In this document: positions 20,671 to 55,525 of the stretch, one piece after another
Layout of the letters: every line of letters begins with the position of its first letter
How positions within the stretch are numbered: the stretch's first letter is position 1
Origin: an uncultured Chroococcidiopsis sp.
GTDB taxonomy: Bacteria; Cyanobacteriota; Cyanobacteriia; Cyanobacteriales; Chroococcidiopsidaceae
Assembly (NCBI GenBank): GCA_964248365.1
Contig: CAXTYC010000011.1
Location: 69,322 to 133,321 of the forward strand
Direction: 5' to 3'
DNA: 64,000 nt
Notes under the pieces: generated by a model
What the model saw: only the letters and a program-made list of their open reading frames with translations
What the model was told of the DNA's origin: nothing
Database searches by the model: none
Translations under genes and position numbers: made by a program

Positions 20671-20692
20671 GTAGGGTGGGCAATGCCCACCT
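20671..20692 (+). repeat. GTAG-type REP-like palindrome
   Basis: GTAGGGTGGGCAATGCCCACCT; related copies at 21427-21464 (interrupted), 21647-21666, 51362-51384 and 52181-52203. Confidence 0.75.
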
Positions 20693-36689: not shown

Positions 36690-38843
36690 CTATTCGCTAA
36701 TCATTTCGTATTCTTGAATAAATTGGCTGATGGCAATTTTCTGATTTTCTGTTAATTTACTTTCTTGTGCAATCCTAACACGATCAATAATTTGAGCAGG
36801 GTCAAGGAAAGTCTCAAGCTGCTTAATATCAAGCTTGTAGTGTTCGGTTAAAACCGCATCAGATGCAGAATAACTAAATGTCTTTTGGAGGAACTTCTCT
36901 AAGAAAATAATTAGCCCTTCATCATTGCTAGTAACTTCCGCAACGTACTGTTTGACTTCATTATCGCCCTTCCAATCTCGCCAACAATACAGAATAATCG
37001 GTAGCTTTGGCGCTTGCAGTAGAGAGCCTTGCCCTGCAGATGCCTGCACTTTCTCTAAGGCGAGTTCCTCTAGCTGCTTAAGGTGTTGTGAACCGATCAG
37101 GCATTCCGGCAGGAGGCTAGATTGATCTGCTCCATACTTACCTTGTTGCTGACCAAAGGTGACTAATGCCTGCATAATTGTGGAGAGGGCGTTACCGCTG
37201 GAAATCGCCTGTTTCAACACCTCAAACCGTAATCGCTCATCCCCGCAACGTAAAAGCTGCCAAATAATGCGGGAAATTATAACATCATTGCCAAAATCAA
37301 ATATAGTGCGCGGTTCGTCTGAGGGAAGCAAAAGCTGATCGCCCACATCAAACAAAGCTTGTACAATCGAGGAAATGTCATCTGGGGCAATCTCTGTTGC
37401 GGTGTAATCTTCAAGCCTTTCCAGAATTGCCCGAACTTGAGAAGTGCCGTCAGGAAGTTTTTGCTGGGCGATCGCTACCAAAGTTTGCCCAAATGCCTTA
37501 GCATCTTTCGTCAAGGCAAGAATAGCTTTCATCTGTGTATTAGACAATTCCTCTTCTGGTAACGCTAGACGAAAATAGATGGAAAATACTTCTGGGCTGC
37601 ATATACGCAGTTGTTTGCGCCAAGTTGACTCATCTTGTACGCCATAGTCGCTATTACCCCAAACTGCTTGTAACTTAGGGAAAAGCTGCATTAGCAAGCG
37701 TTTGACTGGCTGTTTATCTTGCTCTGGAAGTTGAGCTATCCATGAATTATGAATCCGCTTGAGTTCGTCCAGTGTATAACCTAGATAACCTTTGTCATCT
37801 GCCAAAGGAGTGAAAGCCTGATAATTTTTGCGGATGATGTTATATATTGTTGGGCAAAAGACTCTTAGCGACTCAAGGGCAATAAAATCGACTGTGTTGA
37901 CTTCCCCTTTGACTGCGGGGTATGTCACACTCAAGTTGTTAGTCAGGTGAACAATGTCACGCGCATTGGTAATAAAGTGGTCTATGCCTTGATAGTAGAG
38001 GTTACGCCAGCGTGTGCGATCAAATAGCTGGTGTGGAGTATCAGCAAGTACGGCACTAAGCTTTGCAAACAGAAGTTTACGCAGTAAGGTTTGATCTGGA
38101 ATTGGTAGCTCAAACTGAACTTGAACAATCTTCTCTAGGTATGCTTCTCCATCTATTCCCTGAGTGTCTGCCAGTGCTTTAACCACAACTGAGCGATCGC
38201 ACACTAAAAGATATACAACATCAGTAAAATTGGGAATTGATGTGATAGTGCGAAACAGTTGCCCGATTTCCTGACTAGTCAGCTTGTCAATATCATCAAT
38301 AGTGACAACTATGCGCGGATGCTGATGAAGCAGTTTGTCTTCAACTTCTTCTTTTAAGTCGGAAGTCTCCTTTTGCTGGTTGTCAAATACTGTTGCTACT
38401 GCTTCGCCAGTTTGAGTGTAAGGCAGAGGAATTTTAGAAACAACCTTAGCAAAATCTGCTACTCGATCTCTCAAGCCTTTTGGCACAGATTTCCATTCGC
38501 TCAAAACAGACTCTAATTGATCGAAGAAGCGCCTTGCGATGTCTTCGTGTCCAGCAAACAACCAGGGATTAAAGGGAACGATGATTGGTTGCTCAGATTC
38601 TTGCTTTTGCTTCAGGTAGTGAACTATAAAGTTCAACATTGTTGACTTGCCCGAACCCCAAGCACCGTAAATTGCAATCACGAACCCACCTGGAAATTTC
38701 ATTTGGCAAATACTGTCTGCAAGATGCTGGGCAAAGGGCGCATATCCTAATATATCTGTTGTCGGCTCGGTTAAAGGTTTGTATGCCGATAGGTGATTAA
38801 GGTTCTCAGATACTGCCGTCGAATTATTCTCCTTTGCCGCCAT
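36690..38843 (-). CDS. KAP-family P-loop NTPase
   Basis: D.LG...FA, IAIYGAWGSGKS Walker A, FNPW, IVVTIDDIDKL Walker B, YLEKIVQV.F.LP. Confidence 0.9.
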   Translation of the reverse strand: MAAKENNSTAVSENLNHLSAYKPLTEPTTDILGYAPFAQHLADSICQMKFPGGFVIAIYGAWGSGKSTMLNFIVHYLKQKQESEQPIIVPFNPWLFAGHEDIARRFFDQLESVLSEWKSVPKGLRDRVADFAKVVSKIPLPYTQTGEAVATVFDNQQKETSDLKEEVEDKLLHQHPRIVVTIDDIDKLTSQEIGQLFRTITSIPNFTDVVYLLVCDRSVVVKALADTQGIDGEAYLEKIVQVQFELPIPDQTLLRKLLFAKLSAVLADTPHQLFDRTRWRNLYYQGIDHFITNARDIVHLTNNLSVTYPAVKGEVNTVDFIALESLRVFCPTIYNIIRKNYQAFTPLADDKGYLGYTLDELKRIHNSWIAQLPEQDKQPVKRLLMQLFPKLQAVWGNSDYGVQDESTWRKQLRICSPEVFSIYFRLALPEEELSNTQMKAILALTKDAKAFGQTLVAIAQQKLPDGTSQVRAILERLEDYTATEIAPDDISSIVQALFDVGDQLLLPSDEPRTIFDFGNDVIISRIIWQLLRCGDERLRFEVLKQAISSGNALSTIMQALVTFGQQQGKYGADQSSLLPECLIGSQHLKQLEELALEKVQASAGQGSLLQAPKLPIILYCWRDWKGDNEVKQYVAEVTSNDEGLIIFLEKFLQKTFSYSASDAVLTEHYKLDIKQLETFLDPAQIIDRVRIAQESKLTENQKIAISQFIQEYEMISE

Positions 38844-50143: not shown

Positions 50144-51298
<1,155 letters not shown>

Positions 51299-51361
51299 AG
51301 AAAGATAACTATAAGAGATTAAGCGCACATATATGACGTTAGCTTAATTTCGCTCTTAATG

Positions 51362-51384
51362 AAGGTGGGCAATGCCCACCCTAC
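51362..51384 (-). repeat. GTAG-type REP-like palindrome
   Basis: AAGGTGGGCAATGCCCACCCTAC, identical to 52181-52203. Confidence 0.8.
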
Positions 51385-51405: not shown

Positions 51406-51855
51406 TTAGGGTATCTCTGGCATATCCCTTCCAGTGCAAAGGGCTTCAATGGCATCAACTCCAGAGTTACCAACATGAATCAGCGTATCGTCGTAGCCTG
51501 CAAATACCCTACCATCCGAATCCATTACTAAAGTCATGTGATAGCTGAAAGCCTCCCCAATTACACACACCGGAGCGCCTACCCGCTCACTGTAGTCTTC
51601 AACTCTTTCTGGATAGATATGTGAGGCAGCAACCGATGGATTGATGCAAAATTCGTCCTTTTCTTCCTTAAGGCGGTGATGTGGGTGTACGACGAGCAAA
51701 CCCCCAAACTGCCTTAGAAAGTCCATTACAACTACATGAATAGGATACCCTTCTGACTTCAAGCTCTTCTCGTATTCGCTTGTATCCACATAGCGGTCTT
51801 CGCTCCATCCTGCTTGCTTAAGTAAAGCAATGGTCGCTGCTGAAAATGTTGCCAT
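51406..51855 (-). CDS. SUKH-3 family immunity protein
   Basis: LL.QAGW...R, FL.QFGGL, VIGE, LVMDSDGRVF, G....AIEAL..G pattern. Confidence 0.8.
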   Translation of the reverse strand: MATFSAATIALLKQAGWSEDRYVDTSEYEKSLKSEGYPIHVVVMDFLRQFGGLLVVHPHHRLKEEKDEFCINPSVAASHIYPERVEDYSERVGAPVCVIGEAFSYHMTLVMDSDGRVFAGYDDTLIHVGNSGVDAIEALCTGRDMPEIP

Positions 51856-51926: not shown

Positions 51927-52118
51927 TTACTTGTTCAGCAATTTATGCACACACTTCATCCAATCATCCCAGGCGGCTGGGTCAGCCGTTGATCCATCCT
52001 CAAGTAATATCAAATCACTAAGTAACCCTCCAACATCATCAGAATTAGTGCGCTCATAAAAACCTTCTAGAAATAGAACCATTGCTTTAAATGCCTGTTT
52101 TTCTGTTAATTTCTCCAT
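51927..52118 (-). CDS. Small acidic putative immunity protein
   Basis: LT..QAF.AM..FLE.FY......D...LL.....TADPAAW.DW pattern; position in an immunity array. Confidence 0.65.
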   Translation of the reverse strand: MEKLTEKQAFKAMVLFLEGFYERTNSDDVGGLLSDLILLEDGSTADPAAWDDWMKCVHKLLNK

Positions 52119-52180
52119 CTTTACTTCCCCTTATTTCCATCTTTAGTTTTTACTGTCGAGATGGGTCGTTGAGTGAAAAA

Positions 52181-52203
52181 AAGGTGGGCAATGCCCACCC
52201 TAC
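52181..52203 (-). repeat. GTAG-type REP-like palindrome
   Basis: AAGGTGGGCAATGCCCACCCTAC, identical to 51362-51384. Confidence 0.8.
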
Positions 52204-52222
52204 GAAAACTTAGCTGTGTTCT

Positions 52223-52741
52223 CTATTTGTTGAGAGCGGTATAATTGGAATACCAAGAAATATAAGATTCAACTACTTTTTTGTATGTTCCTGGTTTCAA
52301 CCTAACTTCCTTAGCAGACTTAGTTGTATAATCTCGCCAAATAAATCTTTCTCCTTCATCATCTTCTAAAAGAAAAGCCATTTCTCCATCAAAAGCTTCA
52401 GAAAAATCTAGACCTATAAAAAATCTTCTGTATTTTTCTTCTAATTCAGATAGCTCTGATAAAGAATAGCTATTGTCACCGTAAAGAGCAGAGTCTAGAA
52501 ATTCTACAACTTGTGTAGCACTCATTGCCATTAAAGCTACGTCCTTCCGTTTTCCACAATACTTTAAGGAGCTATAGAAAGCTTGTACAGGAATACCTAG
52601 CATTACTGTAATAGAAAAATTTCCTATTCTATCTCCTCCAGCCCACATGGCTATATGCCCAAATACATATTTTGGAGGATCGCTTTCTCGCCTATCTAAA
52701 ATACACTCTATGCCAAACTCTTCTTTATCTCCAAACATCAT
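52223..52741 (-). CDS. Putative cognate immunity protein (Imm42-like)
   Basis: MMFGDKEEFGIE...FGHIAMWAGG.RIG...EAFDG pattern; start overlaps the toxin stop (ATGA). Confidence 0.7.
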   Translation of the reverse strand: MMFGDKEEFGIECILDRRESDPPKYVFGHIAMWAGGDRIGNFSITVMLGIPVQAFYSSLKYCGKRKDVALMAMSATQVVEFLDSALYGDNSYSLSELSELEEKYRRFFIGLDFSEAFDGEMAFLLEDDEGERFIWRDYTTKSAKEVRLKPGTYKKVVESYISWYSNYTALNK

Positions 52742-54279
52742 TTCTGACTACCTCTTGCCCTATCGCTATCTATACTCTCAAATCTCTTTCGGATGTAATT
52801 AGGAACTTTTAAACCACGTTCAGAGTTTTCGCGTCCGTTCCAATGCACTTTGCCATTTTGACCTTTATATCGATAGAATTCCCCTTGAGCATTTCTGCCC
52901 CACCATGATTCCCCATCTTTTGTAGGAATTGCGTTTTTATAGACTTCTTCTGCGTCATCAGGCAATTTCGTAGTTTTAGAGCCACCACCTCGAAAATTAG
53001 GAGATGATGGATCGTGCTGCCCTGGATTTTCATATTCTGGTTTAGAACCATGATATGCTCCTTCTTTTCTTTGACGTTTTTGTTCATTACGTTCAACCCT
53101 GCTTGAGGTTTTACCCGCTCTCGATGTCTCACCCTGTGTTGACTTACTCGATGAAGAATCTGGGGAGTTGTTGTTAGCAGGATTGGATGCATCTGGTGTG
53201 CTAGGTGGGTCGCTATTAGCTTGAGGTGGTAATGCTGGACTAGGTTCAGGACTGGGTGAGGGTTCTGGCGATGGCGACGGTGGAGAAGTAGGTAAAGGCT
53301 CTGGTGATGGAAAAATTGATGGAGGAGGTGGGGGTGAGGGTGGACTACCAGGAAGAGTCAAAGGTCCTGGCACTACTCTAGTCTTACTCTCATCTTCAAG
53401 AGTATTTGGATCGTCTTTGGGTTGCCCTGGAATAATAATTGGGTTATCGTTAATTTTCTCCCCAGGATTTACCCCAACTCCTGGTGGCATCGACTTAGTT
53501 ACTTCTTGAAAGTCAGGCTGATTTAATAGCTCTAAGGCTTGCTCCTGCTTTTGTGGGGGCCACTGTTCCCAAGGTAATGGGGGTGGATTGCCGTAAATGT
53601 CTGGTTGCTGGTATAAAGGAGTTAAACTGATAAATTTAAAACTATAATCATCTGACCCATAGTAACGGGTATTTGTGTACTCAAAAAAACAACGCAATCC
53701 ATACTTATCTATTACTCCATAACACATTCTTGGGTAATTCCCATCCATACCCAGCTGACGCAATACGTCAACCGCATGAATTGGACCAGTTACTAAATCA
53801 TTTGACCCTCCAGGTTCATGAAAACCATAATGAGTCGTAAAAGTTGTGTGAGGATACCAAGTGTGATTTCGATTTGTTGTCCAAACCTCAAAGGTAATGT
53901 CGTAAAAAATATTGTCGCCTTGCCCTCCTTGAAAGGGAACACAAACTACATCATTTGGATAAGTCAAACAATATTTTTGTCTGGCTTTTTCGTGAAGAAG
54001 TTGCTTGTGAGTTTCATCAAAATAATGTACAGTAGCAGCACCAGTTGAGCCAGCACCAATTAGAAGTACCGCCGCACATTTAGGATCTCTAAAACAAGCG
54101 CCTAATGAAGATAATGCAGGTACAGGTGCAATAGGTGTTGGTGTAGATGGTGGGGGTGTAATTAGTTGTGCATAAGCAGGTTTAGGAAAACTCCCCTTGA
54201 GGAGAAAAAGTAGAAGGAACGTCCAAAGTCCTAATAATTTAGATATATACTTACGTGTCAAGACAGGTTTTTGCATCAA
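52738..54279 (-). CDS. Putative secreted polymorphic toxin (signal peptide, unrecognised N-terminal domain, Pro/Ser linker, nuclease-like C-terminal tip)
   Basis: Signal ending AYA-Q; PSP repeats; basic ~110-aa tip with PGQHDP...LPDDAEEVY..AIP...WWG....GEFYRY...NG.VHWNG; translationally coupled to an immunity-like gene. Confidence 0.75.
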   Translation of the reverse strand: MMQKPVLTRKYISKLLGLWTFLLLFLLKGSFPKPAYAQLITPPPSTPTPIAPVPALSSLGACFRDPKCAAVLLIGAGSTGAATVHYFDETHKQLLHEKARQKYCLTYPNDVVCVPFQGGQGDNIFYDITFEVWTTNRNHTWYPHTTFTTHYGFHEPGGSNDLVTGPIHAVDVLRQLGMDGNYPRMCYGVIDKYGLRCFFEYTNTRYYGSDDYSFKFISLTPLYQQPDIYGNPPPLPWEQWPPQKQEQALELLNQPDFQEVTKSMPPGVGVNPGEKINDNPIIIPGQPKDDPNTLEDESKTRVVPGPLTLPGSPPSPPPPPSIFPSPEPLPTSPPSPSPEPSPSPEPSPALPPQANSDPPSTPDASNPANNNSPDSSSSKSTQGETSRAGKTSSRVERNEQKRQRKEGAYHGSKPEYENPGQHDPSSPNFRGGGSKTTKLPDDAEEVYKNAIPTKDGESWWGRNAQGEFYRYKGQNGKVHWNGRENSERGLKVPNYIRKRFESIDSDRARGSQK

Positions 54280-54643: not shown

Positions 54644-55525
54644 ATGTTACTAACCTCTCCCTACCTACCTTTGGCAATGCAATTTACCTCGCCAGGACCA
54701 ATTCTGATTAATATTGGACCACTAACTATCCGCTGGTATGGTTTACTAATTGCGATGGCAGTGTTAATTGGAGTCAATCTTTCCCAGTACCTAGCCTCAC
54801 GCCGTCATGTTAATCCTGAGTTACTTGGCGATTTAATAATTTGGCTTGTAATTGCGGCAATCCCATCTGCTCGACTGTATTATGTTTTATTTGAGTGGTC
54901 ACAATATGCCCAAAATTGGGGCAAAATTTTTGCAATTTGGGAAGGAGGAATAGCAATTCATGGAGCGATTTTAGGCGGAATTGTGGCAGCTCTAATATTT
55001 GCCAAAATTCACAAAATTTCTTTTTGGCAACTAACAGATTTAGTGGCTCCTTCACTAATTTTAGGACAAGCGATCGGTCGGTGGGGGAATTTCTTCAACT
55101 CAGAAGCGTTTGGAAGTCCTACCAATTTACCTTGGAAGCTGTTTATTCCTTTAGAACGTCGTCCCCCAGGATACGAAAATTTTGATTATTTTCATCCCAC
55201 CTTTCTATATGAATCTCTGTGGAATTTAATGGTGTTTGGTTTATTGCTGACTTTGTTTTTTAGAGGTTTGCGAGGAAAGCCACGCCTGAAGATAGGTACA
55301 CTATTTTTAGTCTACCTGGTAGCATACAGCCTGGGGCGTTTCTGGATTGAAGGCTTACGAACTGATAGCTTGATGCTCGGACCACTACGGATGGCTCAAG
55401 TGGTAAGTTTAGTAGGGATGAGCTTGGGATTAGCTGGTTTAGCTTGGCAATACATTTACAAACGCCCCCTGCCAGATGTTGTACCGCCTGTACAGGAGGA
55501 AAGAGTAGAAGTTTCCAGACGATGA
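54644..55525 (+). CDS. lgt: Prolipoprotein diacylglyceryl transferase
   Basis: [45 protein letters not shown]. Confidence 0.96.

What the first reader, a model, noticed from the sequence alone, without database searches (positions are those of the whole stretch)
52223..54279. Putative Sec-exported polymorphic toxin with an unrecognised N-terminal module, inserted between rlmN and lgt
Seen: a 513-aa ORF with a signal peptide (..PAYA-Q), a Cys-flanked hydrophobic Gly/Ala segment (CFRDPKCAAVLLIGAGSTGAA), an aromatic-rich domain (PFQGGQG..YDITF..), a long PSP/Ser linker and a basic ~110-aa tip (QHDP...VHWNG), with its stop overlapping the start of an Imm42-like gene. Known: this toxin-tip plus coupled immunity layout defines polymorphic toxin systems. 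Inference: I recognise no RHS, filamentous haemagglutinin, PAAR, WXG/LXG, MafB or Hint domain and see no secretion genes nearby, so this may be an undescribed cyanobacterial trafficking class. The signal/globular/Pro-rich layout loosely recalls filamentous-phage adhesion proteins, which is speculation.
Basis: partly seen in the sequence, partly recalled or inferred. Interest (0 to 1): 0.8.

Follow-up and report, generated by a model that had tools for sequence, protein, structure and literature searches.

The report
Cyanobacterial secreted toxin with swappable tip
A cyanobacterial gene encodes a signal-peptide protein whose conserved front end carries different toxin tips in different strains; here the tip is likely an RNase and the next gene is its predicted Imm42 antidote, so the pair is probably a weapon against rival bacteria, built on a front-end module absent from Pfam and NCBIfam.

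Summary
A 513-aa ORF (52738..54279, minus strand) has a Sec-type signal peptide, a Pro/Ser linker and a basic C-terminal tip of about 109 aa. Its stop overlaps (ATGA) the start of an Imm42 gene (Pfam E 3.6e-17).

The N-terminal 310 residues match nothing in Pfam, NCBIfam or PDB, by sequence or fold. They do define a family: 138 representative clusters, found mainly in Chroococcidiopsidaceae and a few other cyanobacteria. Its members end in different toxin tips (Tox-PL-2, Ntox33, YwqJ-deaminase, Tox-REase-5, RNAse_A_bac, CdiA_C), each followed by a different gene.

The window's tip recurs at the ends of PAAR/RHS, DUF4157 and PT-HINT proteins. It is almost always followed by an Imm42-like gene: 23 of 72 by Pfam, 67 of 72 by an iterated profile. 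A complex model puts Imm42 on the tip's conserved face.

The general class, a Sec-dependent polymorphic toxin with a lineage-specific constant N-domain, was described in 2012 (MafB-N, Microscilla-N, APD1/2). This is therefore a new variant of a known kind.

Three details stand out:
- The middle sub-domain of the N-module is also variable.
- An orphan SUKH-3 gene and a conserved 63-aa gene trail the cassette.
- The window's tip has Gln where relatives have a nearly invariant His.

The parts
52738..54279 (-). Polymorphic toxin gene: 513 aa from TTG, probably 512 aa from the ATG at 54276.
   Evidence: ORF; sequence. It is the only copy in its own genome.
54169..54279 (-). Sec-type signal peptide, residues 1-37, ending ..PAYA|Q.
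   Evidence: Read from the sequence. The layout is conserved in homologues. This DNA segment is 86% identical to a Tolypothrix MAG homologue, although the N-modules are only about 37% identical as protein.
53941..54168 (-). Conserved N-segment of the module, residues 38-113: C-x5-C, a short Gly/Ala stretch, a helix, and YC..YP.D.VC.
   Evidence: C68 and C113 are invariant. phmmer with this segment hits 75 of 149 session proteins. The model shows a helix at model residues 52-69.
53605..53940 (-). Variable, beta-rich middle sub-domain, residues 114-225.
   Evidence: Only 5 of 149 session proteins match it. Middle regions fall into 12 clusters among 18 family members. The model has six long strands.
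53344..53604 (-). Conserved pre-linker segment, residues 226-312: PLPW..W, MP..G..PG, IIIPG..DDPNT..DE.
   Evidence: W237, W240, M264, D289, P291 and T293 are invariant. 60 of 149 session proteins match it.
53068..53343 (-). Pro/Ser-rich linker, residues 313-404, and the likely recombination junction.
   Evidence: Sequence. Bases 53186-53280 are 84% identical to the linker of the Chroococcidiopsis FACHB-1243 paralogue, which carries another tip.
52741..53067 (-). Toxin tip, residues 405-513, with the core motif Y-x-N-P-G-[H>Q]-H-D ... R ... H-W-x-G.
   Evidence: Alignments. Also found on PAAR/RHS and DUF4157 proteins. Model pLDDT 79.5. Best fold match is CdiA-CT 5t87_E, Z 5.5.
53017..53019 (-). 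Codon CAG for Gln421, where relatives have His.
   Evidence: His in 10 of 10 word-search homologues and in 78 of 81 aligned tips; the window is the only Gln. That set is partly biased by a search pattern containing GHHD.
52223..52741 (-). Imm42 immunity gene, 172 aa; its start overlaps the toxin stop (ATGA).
   Evidence: PF15593, E 3.6e-17. Pairing with this tip family is conserved. Complex model scores 0.82 against a best control of 0.01.
52181..52201 (-). Terminator-like hairpin plus T-run directly after Imm42; a copy of a dispersed palindrome.
51927..52118 (-). Conserved 63-aa gene of unknown family.
   Evidence: 99 homologous clusters at E<=1e-3; no Pfam match.
51406..51855 (-). Orphan SUKH-3 immunity gene with no cognate toxin in the cassette.
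   Evidence: PF14433, E 1.1e-26. It is 75% identical to the SUKH-3 gene that trails the Tolypothrix MAG cassette, which has another tip.

Best explanation
This is a toxin-immunity cassette of the polymorphic-toxin kind: a signal-peptide protein with a family-conserved N-terminal module and an exchangeable C-terminal tip, followed by an Imm42 gene that is predicted to neutralise that tip.

Shown by the calls:
- The N-module is shared by a cyanobacterial family whose members end in many different toxin domains.
- The window's tip also ends PAAR/RHS, DUF4157 and PT-HINT proteins of other bacteria.
- The tip is almost always followed by an Imm42-like gene.

Inferred mechanism:
- The precursor is exported through Sec and its signal peptide is cut after AYA.
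- The N-module folds outside the cytoplasm, probably with two disulfides (C62-C68 and C104-C113).
- The variable beta-rich middle sub-domain would bind a receptor on related cyanobacteria.
- The conserved pre-linker segment and the Pro-rich linker would help entry, and also serve as the homology handle for swapping tips.
- The 109-aa tip would act in the target's cytoplasm, most likely as a small metal-independent RNase (the Imm42-partnered 'Ntox18' type, with a BECR-like fold).
- Cytoplasmic Imm42, which has no signal peptide, would protect the producer and its kin by covering the conserved H-H-D / R / H face.
- The trailing SUKH-3 gene and the 63-aa gene would be orphan immunity genes left by earlier tip exchanges.

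How the protein crosses the outer membrane is unknown. I favour release as a soluble, bacteriocin-like protein, because it has no anchor and no conserved partner gene.
For: Architecture and family:
- No Pfam or NCBIfam family matches residues 1-400.
- A profile of 9 N-modules finds 138 representative clusters at E<=1e-3, 84 at <=1e-10 and 42 at <=1e-30, among 1.84 billion proteins.
- Named loci come from Aliterella atlantica, Chroococcidiopsis sp. FACHB-1243, a Chroococcidiopsidaceae MAG and a Tolypothrix carrinoi MAG.
- The family was found in 3 of 27 other genomes of the window's family. In a phylum sample it was found in 1 of 400 other genomes, and that match is partial.

Tip polymorphism on the same N-module:
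- Ntox33 (E 2e-21) with DUF4279 downstream.
- Tox-PL-2 (E 8.6e-36) with two unnamed paralogues and SUKH-3 downstream.
- Of 101 representatives scanned, 14 carry a Pfam domain at the tip: Tox-PL-2 x6, Tox-REase-5 x3, YwqJ-deaminase x2, RNAse_A_bac, CdiA_C and DUF6972. None has a Pfam hit on the N-module.

The tip is a travelling toxin domain:
- It has 64-79% identical copies at the C-termini of PAAR-like/RHS, prePAAR/PAAR/RHS and DUF4157 proteins, and of a Salmonella RHS fragment after the DPxGL motif.
- PT-HINT remnants lie upstream of 2 of 73 tip relatives.
- A 37% identical copy lies in an ESPR-signal protein on an Acinetobacter plasmid.

Coupling to immunity:
- Of 80 metagenome loci with a tip relative, 72 have a downstream ORF.
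- 23 of those 72 match Imm42 at E<=1e-3, and 17 of 72 exceed Pfam's cut-off.
- A profile iterated from the window's Imm42 recruits 67 of 72.
- Zhang et al. 2012 list Ntox18, a predicted two-His RNase, as the toxin partner of Imm42 (tables and a section 29 passage).
- A Salmonella study lists a 102-aa 'CdiA RNase'-type effector with an Imm42 immunity gene (passages).

Complex model: score 0.82 in the median run, best of 3 controls 0.01. This mark was reached by 116 of 157 solved complexes and 2 of 215 mismatched pairs; the counts hold only roughly here because my own alignments were used. The runs agree in at least 95% of contacts and the partner's pLDDT is at least 79. Interface residues include tip positions 17-19 (P419, G420, Q421), 68 (R470), 77 (H479) and 79-80.

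Fold of the tip: the top three of 48,161 chains are all toxin chains of toxin-immunity complexes. They are 5t87_E CdiA-CT (Z 5.5, rmsd 2.7, 62 aligned), 9v8i_B YxiD (Z 4.4) and 8hhj_B MafB2-CT (Z 3.6). Colicin D, RelE and BrnT follow at Z 2.4-2.5.

Mosaic evolution:
- The closest relative has rlmN and lgt about 305 bp apart, against 3.5 kb here.
- GC falls to 0.35 over the Imm42 gene, against 0.46-0.48 in rlmN.
- The signal-peptide DNA, the linker DNA and the SUKH-3 gene are far more conserved between loci than the rest of the toxin gene.
Against: - Nothing here shows toxicity, export, RNA cleavage or binding. No RNA data set was available.
- The window's tip has Gln421 where 10 of 10 homologues and 78 of 81 aligned tips have His, so this copy may be weakened or inactive.
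- The tip's fold matches are weak (best Z 5.5; Foldseek finds nothing at E<=1e-3). No sequence model names the tip.
- Its identity with 'Ntox18' rests only on the published Imm42 association. The paper's alignment file was not held.
- No route across the outer membrane is evident: no accessory or secretion gene is conserved next to the family.
- The receptor-binding role of the middle sub-domain is an analogy only. The N-module model is of moderate confidence (pLDDT 77.4, pTM 0.59).
- The iterated Imm42 profile was run on a small, selected set and could drift.
- The insertion is inferred from a single relative. The other five genomes of the genus have rlmN and lgt at separate loci.
Confidence: 0.8

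Rival explanations
1. Same cassette, but delivery is contact-dependent. The constant N-module would hold the toxin on the producer's surface, as proposed for MafB-N and Microscilla-N, and the toxin would be handed over only to touching neighbours in the dense, sheath-enclosed aggregates of these cyanobacteria.
For: Zhang et al. 2012 propose surface anchoring for lineage-specific N-domains that follow a signal peptide (section 37 passages). The same tip rides on contact-dependent systems elsewhere (PAAR/RHS; an ESPR-signal protein). A variable receptor-binding region is also typical of surface-held CdiA (recalled).
Against: No lipobox, transmembrane anchor, beta-barrel or conserved partner gene such as MafA is seen (sequence). 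The Gly/Ala hydrophobic stretch is short here and is replaced by a long Ala/Thr/Val/Gly-rich spacer in homologues.
Confidence: 0.3
2. The toxin gene is a decaying or disarmed copy. The His-to-Gln change at residue 421 has abolished or weakened catalysis, and the locus persists mainly for its immunity genes (Imm42, SUKH-3, perhaps the 63-aa gene), which protect against toxins of other strains.
For: The window is the only Gln among 81 aligned tips, and 10 of 10 independent homologues have His. Decay does occur in both families: 4 of 77 tip relatives carry in-frame stops, and the Aliterella N-module homologue has two stops in its signal peptide. Orphan immunity genes are present.
Against: The 513-codon frame is intact, with its signal peptide, all four Cys and every other conserved tip residue. 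The overlap with Imm42 is kept. It is not known which His is catalytic, and Gln can sometimes replace a substrate-binding His.
Confidence: 0.2
3. Not a weapon: a secreted scavenging nuclease with an intracellular inhibitor, as in barnase-barstar, or a surface protein of some other function.
For: A secreted RNase with a cytoplasmic inhibitor is a known non-conflict arrangement (recalled). No killing has been shown.
Against: The same N-module carries peptidase, deaminase, restriction-endonuclease-fold and RNase tips with different downstream genes. That pattern fits diversifying conflict, not nutrition. The tip is shared with T6SS-type RHS effectors.
Confidence: 0.05
4. A phage-derived adhesion or host-recognition protein (filamentous-phage g3p-like).
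For: Only the loose layout of signal peptide, globular domain and Pro-rich linker. Pf3 G3P appears at rank 2 in the viral fold search, but with E 0.07, TM 0.12 and rmsd 25 A.
Against: No significant viral fold match (best E 0.034). tblastn of the N-module against 50,697 phage records and 72,556 plasmids finds nothing. There are no phage genes around the cassette.
Confidence: 0.02

Closest known systems
MafB toxins of Neisseria, and the Microscilla-N and APD1/APD2 proteins: Sec-dependent polymorphic toxins with a lineage-specific constant N-domain (Zhang et al. 2012, section 37 passages).
   Same: A signal peptide, then a constant domain confined to one lineage, then a polymorphic C-terminal toxin with an immunity gene directly downstream. 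No dedicated secretion machine is encoded nearby.
   Different: There is no sequence match to MafB-N/DUF1020 or to any other Pfam domain, and no MafA-like partner gene. The N-module has its own variable middle sub-domain and a Pro/Ser (or TSP3-type) linker. The lineage is cyanobacterial.
RHS/PAAR (T6SS), DUF4157 and CdiA-type toxins that carry the same tip with Imm42; probably the 'Ntox18'-Imm42 pair of Zhang et al. 2012.
   Same: The tip is 60-79% identical. An Imm42-like gene lies downstream. The published partner of Imm42 is a predicted two-His RNase.
   Different: The delivery part is entirely different. The window's tip has Gln at the first His of the H-H-D motif. Identity of this tip with Ntox18 could not be checked, because no model or alignment was at hand.
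Colicins and S-type pyocins.
   Same: A modular soluble toxin with a receptor-binding module that varies, a translocation module, a small nuclease tip, and a tightly coupled immunity gene. This is what the cassette may work like.
   Different: Colicins and pyocins lack signal peptides and are released by lysis (recalled). The Pyocin_S family finds nothing in this genome at E<=1. The window protein is not a member.
CdiA-CT of Cupriavidus taiwanensis (PDB 5T87; Pfam CdiA_C, PF18451).
   Same: It is the best structural match of the tip model (Z 5.5, rmsd 2.7 A, 62 of 69 residues). It is a small alpha+beta toxin solved with its immunity protein.
   Different: No sequence match to PF18451 in the window's tip or in 73 relatives. 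A Z of 5.5 is below the level at which a shared fold is safe to claim.

Membership tests
Polymorphic toxin system | A constant N-terminal part joined to alternative, unrelated C-terminal toxin domains among homologues. | tested here: met
   at least seven different Pfam tip families, plus unnamed tips, on one N-module.
Polymorphic toxin system | A cognate immunity gene directly downstream that changes together with the tip. | tested here: met
   Imm42 here. DUF4279 follows Ntox33. Two unnamed paralogues follow Tox-PL-2. Tip-Imm42 coupling holds in 23 of 72 loci by Pfam and 67 of 72 by an iterated profile.
Polymorphic toxin system | The tip is shared with toxins of other delivery systems. | tested here: met
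   PAAR/RHS and DUF4157 proteins; PT-HINT remnants; an ESPR-signal protein.
Polymorphic toxin system | The tip is toxic and is neutralised by the immunity protein. | not testable with these tools
   Only a complex model: 0.82 against a best control of 0.01.
Imm42 (PF15593) | Match above Pfam's gathering score over the whole domain. | tested here: met
   63.8 bits against a cut-off of 27.2; residues 1-161 on profile positions 1-160 of 162.
SUKH-3 (PF14433) | Match above Pfam's gathering score. | tested here: met
   94.2 bits against a cut-off of 23.
Ntox18 (Zhang et al. 2012) | Sequence match to the family's alignment; conserved H, S, H. | not testable with these tools
   No hit to any Pfam or NCBIfam model, and the paper's supplement was not held. 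Consistent features are the Imm42 partner, RHS/HINT contexts and conserved His residues.
BECR-fold RNases (RelE, colicin D/E5, BrnT and others) | Shared fold with a solved member. | tested here: inconclusive
   Colicin D, RelE and BrnT reach only Z 2.4-2.5. Foldseek gives weak HigB/RelE rows at E 0.3-1.3.
CdiA_C (PF18451 / PDB 5T87) | Sequence match to PF18451. | tested here: not met
   No hit in the window's tip at E<=10, nor in 73 relatives at E<=0.05.
CdiA_C (PF18451 / PDB 5T87) | Structural match to PDB 5T87 chain E. | tested here: inconclusive
   5t87_E is the best of 48,161 chains, but only at Z 5.5, rmsd 2.7 A, 62 residues aligned.
Known delivery domains (RHS, PAAR, filamentous haemagglutinin/TPS, LXG/WXG, MafB-N/DUF1020, PT-HINT, DUF4157) | Pfam match in the N-terminal 400 residues. 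| tested here: not met
   hmmscan of the whole protein at E<=1, and of residues 37-330 at E<=10, gives no such family. None appears in 101 family representatives.
Pyocin_S / colicin translocation domain (PF06958) | Sequence match. | tested here: not met
   No match in the window's own genome at E<=1. The only leads were E 1.1 in homologue P0002 and atlas scores of 0.77-0.79.
Sec (SPase I) secreted protein | Basic n-region, hydrophobic h-region and an AxA-type cleavage site. | tested here: met
   Read from the sequence and conserved across the family. No signal-peptide predictor was available, and export itself is untested.

The most novel reading that the evidence does not exclude
A self-contained, cyanobacteria-specific protein-toxin delivery platform. 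It would need only Sec and no dedicated secretion genes. It carries two independently exchangeable cassettes: a receptor-binding middle sub-domain and a toxin tip. With it, desiccation-tolerant Chroococcidiopsis-type and some filamentous cyanobacteria would wage strain-level warfare. The conserved pre-linker segment would be a new translocation domain that carries nucleases, deaminases and peptidases across the cyanobacterial envelope.
Probability: 0.3. Interest if true: 0.7.

Novelty: new variant of a known kind. Interest (0 to 1): 0.5.

Why it matters
Protein-toxin warfare between cyanobacteria is hardly studied. Four full-text searches found no paper describing this module or a cyanobacterial system of this type.

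The family offers a compact test case of about 500 aa, with no accessory genes, for how a Sec-exported toxin reaches the cytoplasm of a neighbouring cyanobacterium. It also gives two uncatalogued domains that could be added to the domain databases: the N-module, and the Imm42-partnered tip. Annotation pipelines currently leave both as 'hypothetical'.

The tip family is widespread, occurring on RHS, DUF4157 and CdiA-like carriers and including enterobacterial T6SS effectors. A biochemical assignment would therefore carry well beyond cyanobacteria.

Tried and rejected
- Tectonin: PDB sequence searches gave only a tectonin beta-propeller hairpin (WGxNxxGxIYRY; E 0.063 with the protein, 1.7e-5 with the tip profile). 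This is a 20-residue hairpin repeat, not a fold-level relation.
- VirE2: a weak hit (E 0.03-0.044, 13 bits against a cut-off of 27), taken as chance on the basic, low-complexity stretch.
- Pyocin_S/cloacin: leads were E 1.1 in P0002 and atlas scores of 0.77-0.79, a range that shuffled proteins often reach. The family finds nothing in this genome at E<=1.
- Phage adhesin idea: no significant viral fold match and no tblastn match in phages or plasmids.
- N-module fold: Foldseek finds nothing at E<=1e-3 and the best VIA Z is 3.4. This does not prove the fold is new.
- Atlas search with the tip: only unnamed and RHS-associated clusters (0.95, 0.92), plus an Ntox50 lead at 0.83.
- Paralogues: none in the window's own genome.
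- Earlier findings of this scan: none by sequence.
- Expression: no RNA holder was listed.
- Read laying: contigs of run X1 are identical to the window where they lie, but none covers the Gln421 codon, so that base could not be checked independently. No contig of runs X2-X4 was laid on the tip or the Imm42 gene. The loose ends near 53266-53273 fall in the low-complexity linker and do not by themselves show another tip. The short pieces near 52177-52212 may come from other copies of the dispersed palindrome.
- G014:C300: the 73% DNA match to the 63-aa ORF is not an open gene there.
- Insertion scars: the alignment of the lgt-side junction with the relative shows no direct repeats.
- Orphan cassettes: nine representative proteins begin exactly at the conserved Met264 (MP.GG...DDPNT). 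I could not tell orphan cassettes from gene-calling artefacts on short contigs.
- One literature hit for 'Imm42' (PMC9765294) was a false match to 'Imm4225'.
Full report
**What is there.** The minus strand between lgt (54644..55525, plus strand) and rlmN (50144..51328, minus strand) holds four ORFs:
- a 513-aa ORF (52738..54279);
- a 172-aa ORF whose ATG overlaps the first ORF's TGA as ATGA (52223..52741);
- a 63-aa ORF (51927..52118);
- a 149-aa ORF (51406..51855).

Pfam names the second Imm42 (E 3.6e-17) and the fourth SUKH-3 (E 1.1e-26). It gives nothing meaningful for the first (only a sub-threshold VirE2 hit, E 0.044) and nothing for the third. NCBIfam gives nothing for any of the four. 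The long ORF is listed from TTG, but its second codon is ATG and homologues start at the equivalent Met.

Its sequence reads as a Sec-type signal peptide ending PAYA|Q, followed by five parts:
- a Cys-containing conserved segment;
- a beta-rich region;
- a second conserved segment;
- a Pro/Ser linker (about residues 313-404);
- a basic tip (about residues 405-513).

GC falls to about 0.35 over the Imm42 gene, against 0.46-0.48 in rlmN. A hairpin with a T-run follows Imm42 directly. A Pfam scan of 40 other ORFs of the window shows housekeeping genes and no secretion system near the cassette.

**The tip is a travelling toxin domain coupled to Imm42.** Word-based searches found ten proteins that end in a 54-79% identical copy of the tip. 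One is a Salmonella RHS fragment in which the tip follows the DPxGL motif. Others are a PAAR-like/RHS protein, a prePAAR/PAAR/RHS protein and two DUF4157 proteins.

A pattern scan of metagenomes returned 80 loci with tip relatives, and 72 of them have an ORF directly downstream. Of these 72, 23 match Imm42 at E<=1e-3 and 17 exceed Pfam's cut-off. A profile iterated from the window's Imm42 recruits 67 of 72. That set is small and selected, so some drift is possible.

None of 73 tip relatives, nor the window's tip, matches any Pfam toxin family. Two of the 73 show PT-HINT remnants upstream.

Zhang et al. 2012 (PMC3482391; I read table passages and one passage of section 29) list Ntox18 as the toxin partner of Imm42. 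They describe Ntox18 as a predicted metal-independent two-His RNase found with HINT, RHS and filamentous-haemagglutinin carriers. That fits this tip, but I could not check it, because the paper's alignment file is not held. A Salmonella SPI-6 survey (PMC10469887, passages) lists a 102-aa 'CdiA RNase' effector next to an Imm42 gene.

**Structure of the tip and its complex.** The tip model has pLDDT 79.5 and pTM 0.69. It shows a long N-terminal loop, a short helix, a three-stranded sheet and a C-terminal helix. Foldseek finds nothing at E<=1e-3.

In the exhaustive aligner, the three best of 48,161 chains are all toxin chains of toxin-immunity complexes:
- CdiA-CT of Cupriavidus taiwanensis, 5t87_E (Z 5.5, rmsd 2.7 A, 62 aligned);
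- YxiD (Z 4.4);
- MafB2-CT (Z 3.6).

Colicin D, RelE and BrnT follow at Z 2.4-2.5. These values are too low to prove a shared fold, so I take them as a hint of a small BECR-like RNase fold.

The complex model of Imm42 with the tip scored 0.82 (median of three runs), against 0.01 for the best of three controls. The mark was reached by 116 of 157 solved complexes and 2 of 215 mismatched pairs; these counts hold only roughly, because my own alignments were used. The runs agree in at least 95% of contacts and the partner's pLDDT is at least 79. The interface includes P419-G420-Q421, R470, H479 and N481-G482, which are the most conserved residues of the family. This supports, but does not show, neutralisation by covering the active face.

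**An oddity in this copy.** Across 81 aligned tips the core is Y416, N418, P419, G420, H421, H422, D423, P440, R470, H479, W480 and G482, each present in 70-79 of the 81. At position 421 there is His in 78, a gap in 2, and Gln only in the window.

One of the two scan patterns contained GHHD, so that count is biased. However, the ten homologues found by word search all have His as well. The change is a single base (CAY to CAG). Public contigs identical to the window do not cover this codon. The tip may therefore be weakened, or the first His may be dispensable.

**The N-terminal module defines a cyanobacterial family with exchangeable tips.** The first search gave two relatives:
- P0002, 54% identical, with a different middle region;
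- P0008, 34% identical, which ends in a weak deaminase-like tip (OTT_1508_deam, E 7e-4, below Pfam's cut-off).

Whole-genome searches found the module in 3 of 27 other genomes of the window's family. In a sample of the phylum, 1 of 400 other genomes matched, and only over the N-terminal part. A scan of species genomes named the carriers: Aliterella atlantica CENA595 (two genes), Chroococcidiopsis sp. FACHB-1243 (same genus as the window), a Chroococcidiopsidaceae MAG and a Tolypothrix carrinoi MAG.

A profile of nine N-modules against 1.84 billion representatives found 138 proteins at E<=1e-3, 84 at <=1e-10 and 42 at <=1e-30.

Tips on this module include:
- Ntox33 (E 2e-21), followed by a DUF4279 gene;
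- Tox-PL-2 (E 8.6e-36), followed by two unnamed paralogues and a SUKH-3 gene;
- a weak C39-like peptidase (E 0.009).

Among 101 representatives of at least 185 aa, the tips are Tox-PL-2 in 6, Tox-REase-5 in 3, YwqJ-deaminase in 2, and RNAse_A_bac, CdiA_C and DUF6972 in one each. The other 87 have no Pfam toxin domain, and none has a Pfam hit on the N-module.

The upstream neighbours of the named loci differ from locus to locus, so there is no conserved partner gene.

**Anatomy of the module.** The alignment shows invariant C68 and C113, with C62 and C104 nearly so. This suggests two disulfides, as expected outside the cytoplasm. The second conserved block holds invariant W237, W240, M264, D289, P291 and T293.

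Searching the session's 149 other proteins with each segment gave very different counts:
- N-segment (residues 37-113): 75 hits;
- pre-linker segment (residues 226-312): 60 hits;
- middle part (residues 114-235): only 5 hits.

Middle regions of 18 members that could be delimited fall into 12 clusters. The module therefore carries a second variable cassette.

The model of residues 38-312 (pLDDT 77.4, pTM 0.59) shows a helix-containing N-segment, a six-stranded beta-rich middle and a small helical pre-linker part. It has no match in the PDB (Foldseek none at E<=1e-3; best Z 3.4) or among viral models (best E 0.034). Leads to pyocin/colicin translocation domains did not hold up.

In some members the linker consists of TSP3-type calcium-binding repeats instead of Pro/Ser. 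That also points to an extracytoplasmic location.

**Evolution of the locus.** The closest relative in the genus (rlmN 86% and lgt 82% identical in DNA) has the two genes about 305 bp apart, in the same divergent arrangement. The window has 3.5 kb between them. The other five genomes of the genus have the two genes at separate loci. No insertion scar was seen.

Conservation between loci is mosaic. Compared with the Tolypothrix MAG gene, the signal-peptide DNA is 86% identical and the SUKH-3 gene is 80% identical in DNA (75% in protein), although the N-modules are only about 37% identical as protein. A 95-bp piece of linker DNA is 84% identical to the paralogue in Chroococcidiopsis FACHB-1243, which carries Ntox33.

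This is what recombinational exchange of a tip-plus-immunity cassette would leave, with a junction in the linker and older immunity genes stranded downstream. The 63-aa gene is real and widely conserved, with 99 clusters across several phyla. Its role is open.

**Comparison with what is known.** Zhang et al. 2012 describe polymorphic toxins exported by the Sec pathway ('T2SS'). They also describe lineage-specific constant domains that follow the signal peptide: MafB-N in Neisseria, Microscilla-N, and APD1/2 in Amoebophilus. They propose that these domains anchor or cluster the toxins (Table 1 and section 37 passages).

The window's protein belongs to that class by architecture. It is not a member of any of those domain families. 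It differs in having a variable middle sub-domain, no partner gene and a cyanobacterial range. In function it may resemble colicins or pyocins, but it fails their sequence test.

Four full-text searches found no paper on this module. Subscription journals and the supplement of the 2012 paper were not searchable.

**Verdict.** The tip is probably the uncatalogued Imm42 partner, a likely RNase. The N-module is a new domain family within a known class. The export route beyond Sec, the role of the middle sub-domain and the activity of this Gln421 copy remain inferred.

Noticed in passing
window 51927..52118 (-): The 63-aa ORF between Imm42 and SUKH-3 is a real, strongly conserved small protein. 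It has 99 homologous clusters at 49-94% identity, in cyanobacteria and also in records named Clostridium sporogenes, Paenibacillus, Ktedonobacteraceae and Chitinophagales. It has no Pfam family. It may be an orphan immunity or antitoxin-like gene.
   Followed up: partly
window 20675-20691, 51364-51380, 52183-52199: The palindrome GGTGGGCAATGCCCACC occurs three times in the window (0.01 expected by chance) and many times in all seven genomes of the genus. It flanks both ends of the unit formed by the 63-aa gene and SUKH-3. The copy after Imm42 has a T-run and looks like a terminator.
   Followed up: partly
window ~51205-51270, inside the listed 5' end of rlmN: A second dispersed repeat of 30-60 bp, with dozens of copies in the genus genomes, lies inside the N-terminal extension of the listed 394-aa rlmN ORF. 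That extension does not align with the relatives' rlmN, so the true start is probably further downstream.
   Followed up: no
L011 5000-5110 (Aliterella atlantica CENA595): The family member here has two in-frame stop codons inside its signal-peptide region (MSKF**IWTF...). It may be a broken copy.
   Followed up: no
L032 4338-5117 and L035 4287-5117: In two metagenome loci, the immunity gene after a tip relative is an Imm42 domain fused to a BRCT domain.
   Followed up: no
L017 1063-1752 (-) (genome G178): A 229-aa protein has the family's signal peptide, Cys motifs and a middle domain, but lacks the pre-linker segment, linker and tip. It is either a short form or a remnant.
   Followed up: no
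proteins P0097, P0098, P0100, P0104, P0108, P0110, P0113, P0124: Several representative proteins start exactly at the family's invariant Met264 (MP.GG..PGD...DDPNT) and continue through the linker into a tip. They may be orphan tip cassettes, or gene-calling artefacts on short contigs.
   Followed up: no
window 36690..38843 (-): A 717-aa KAP-family P-loop NTPase lies among housekeeping genes. It is unrelated to the finding.
   Followed up: no
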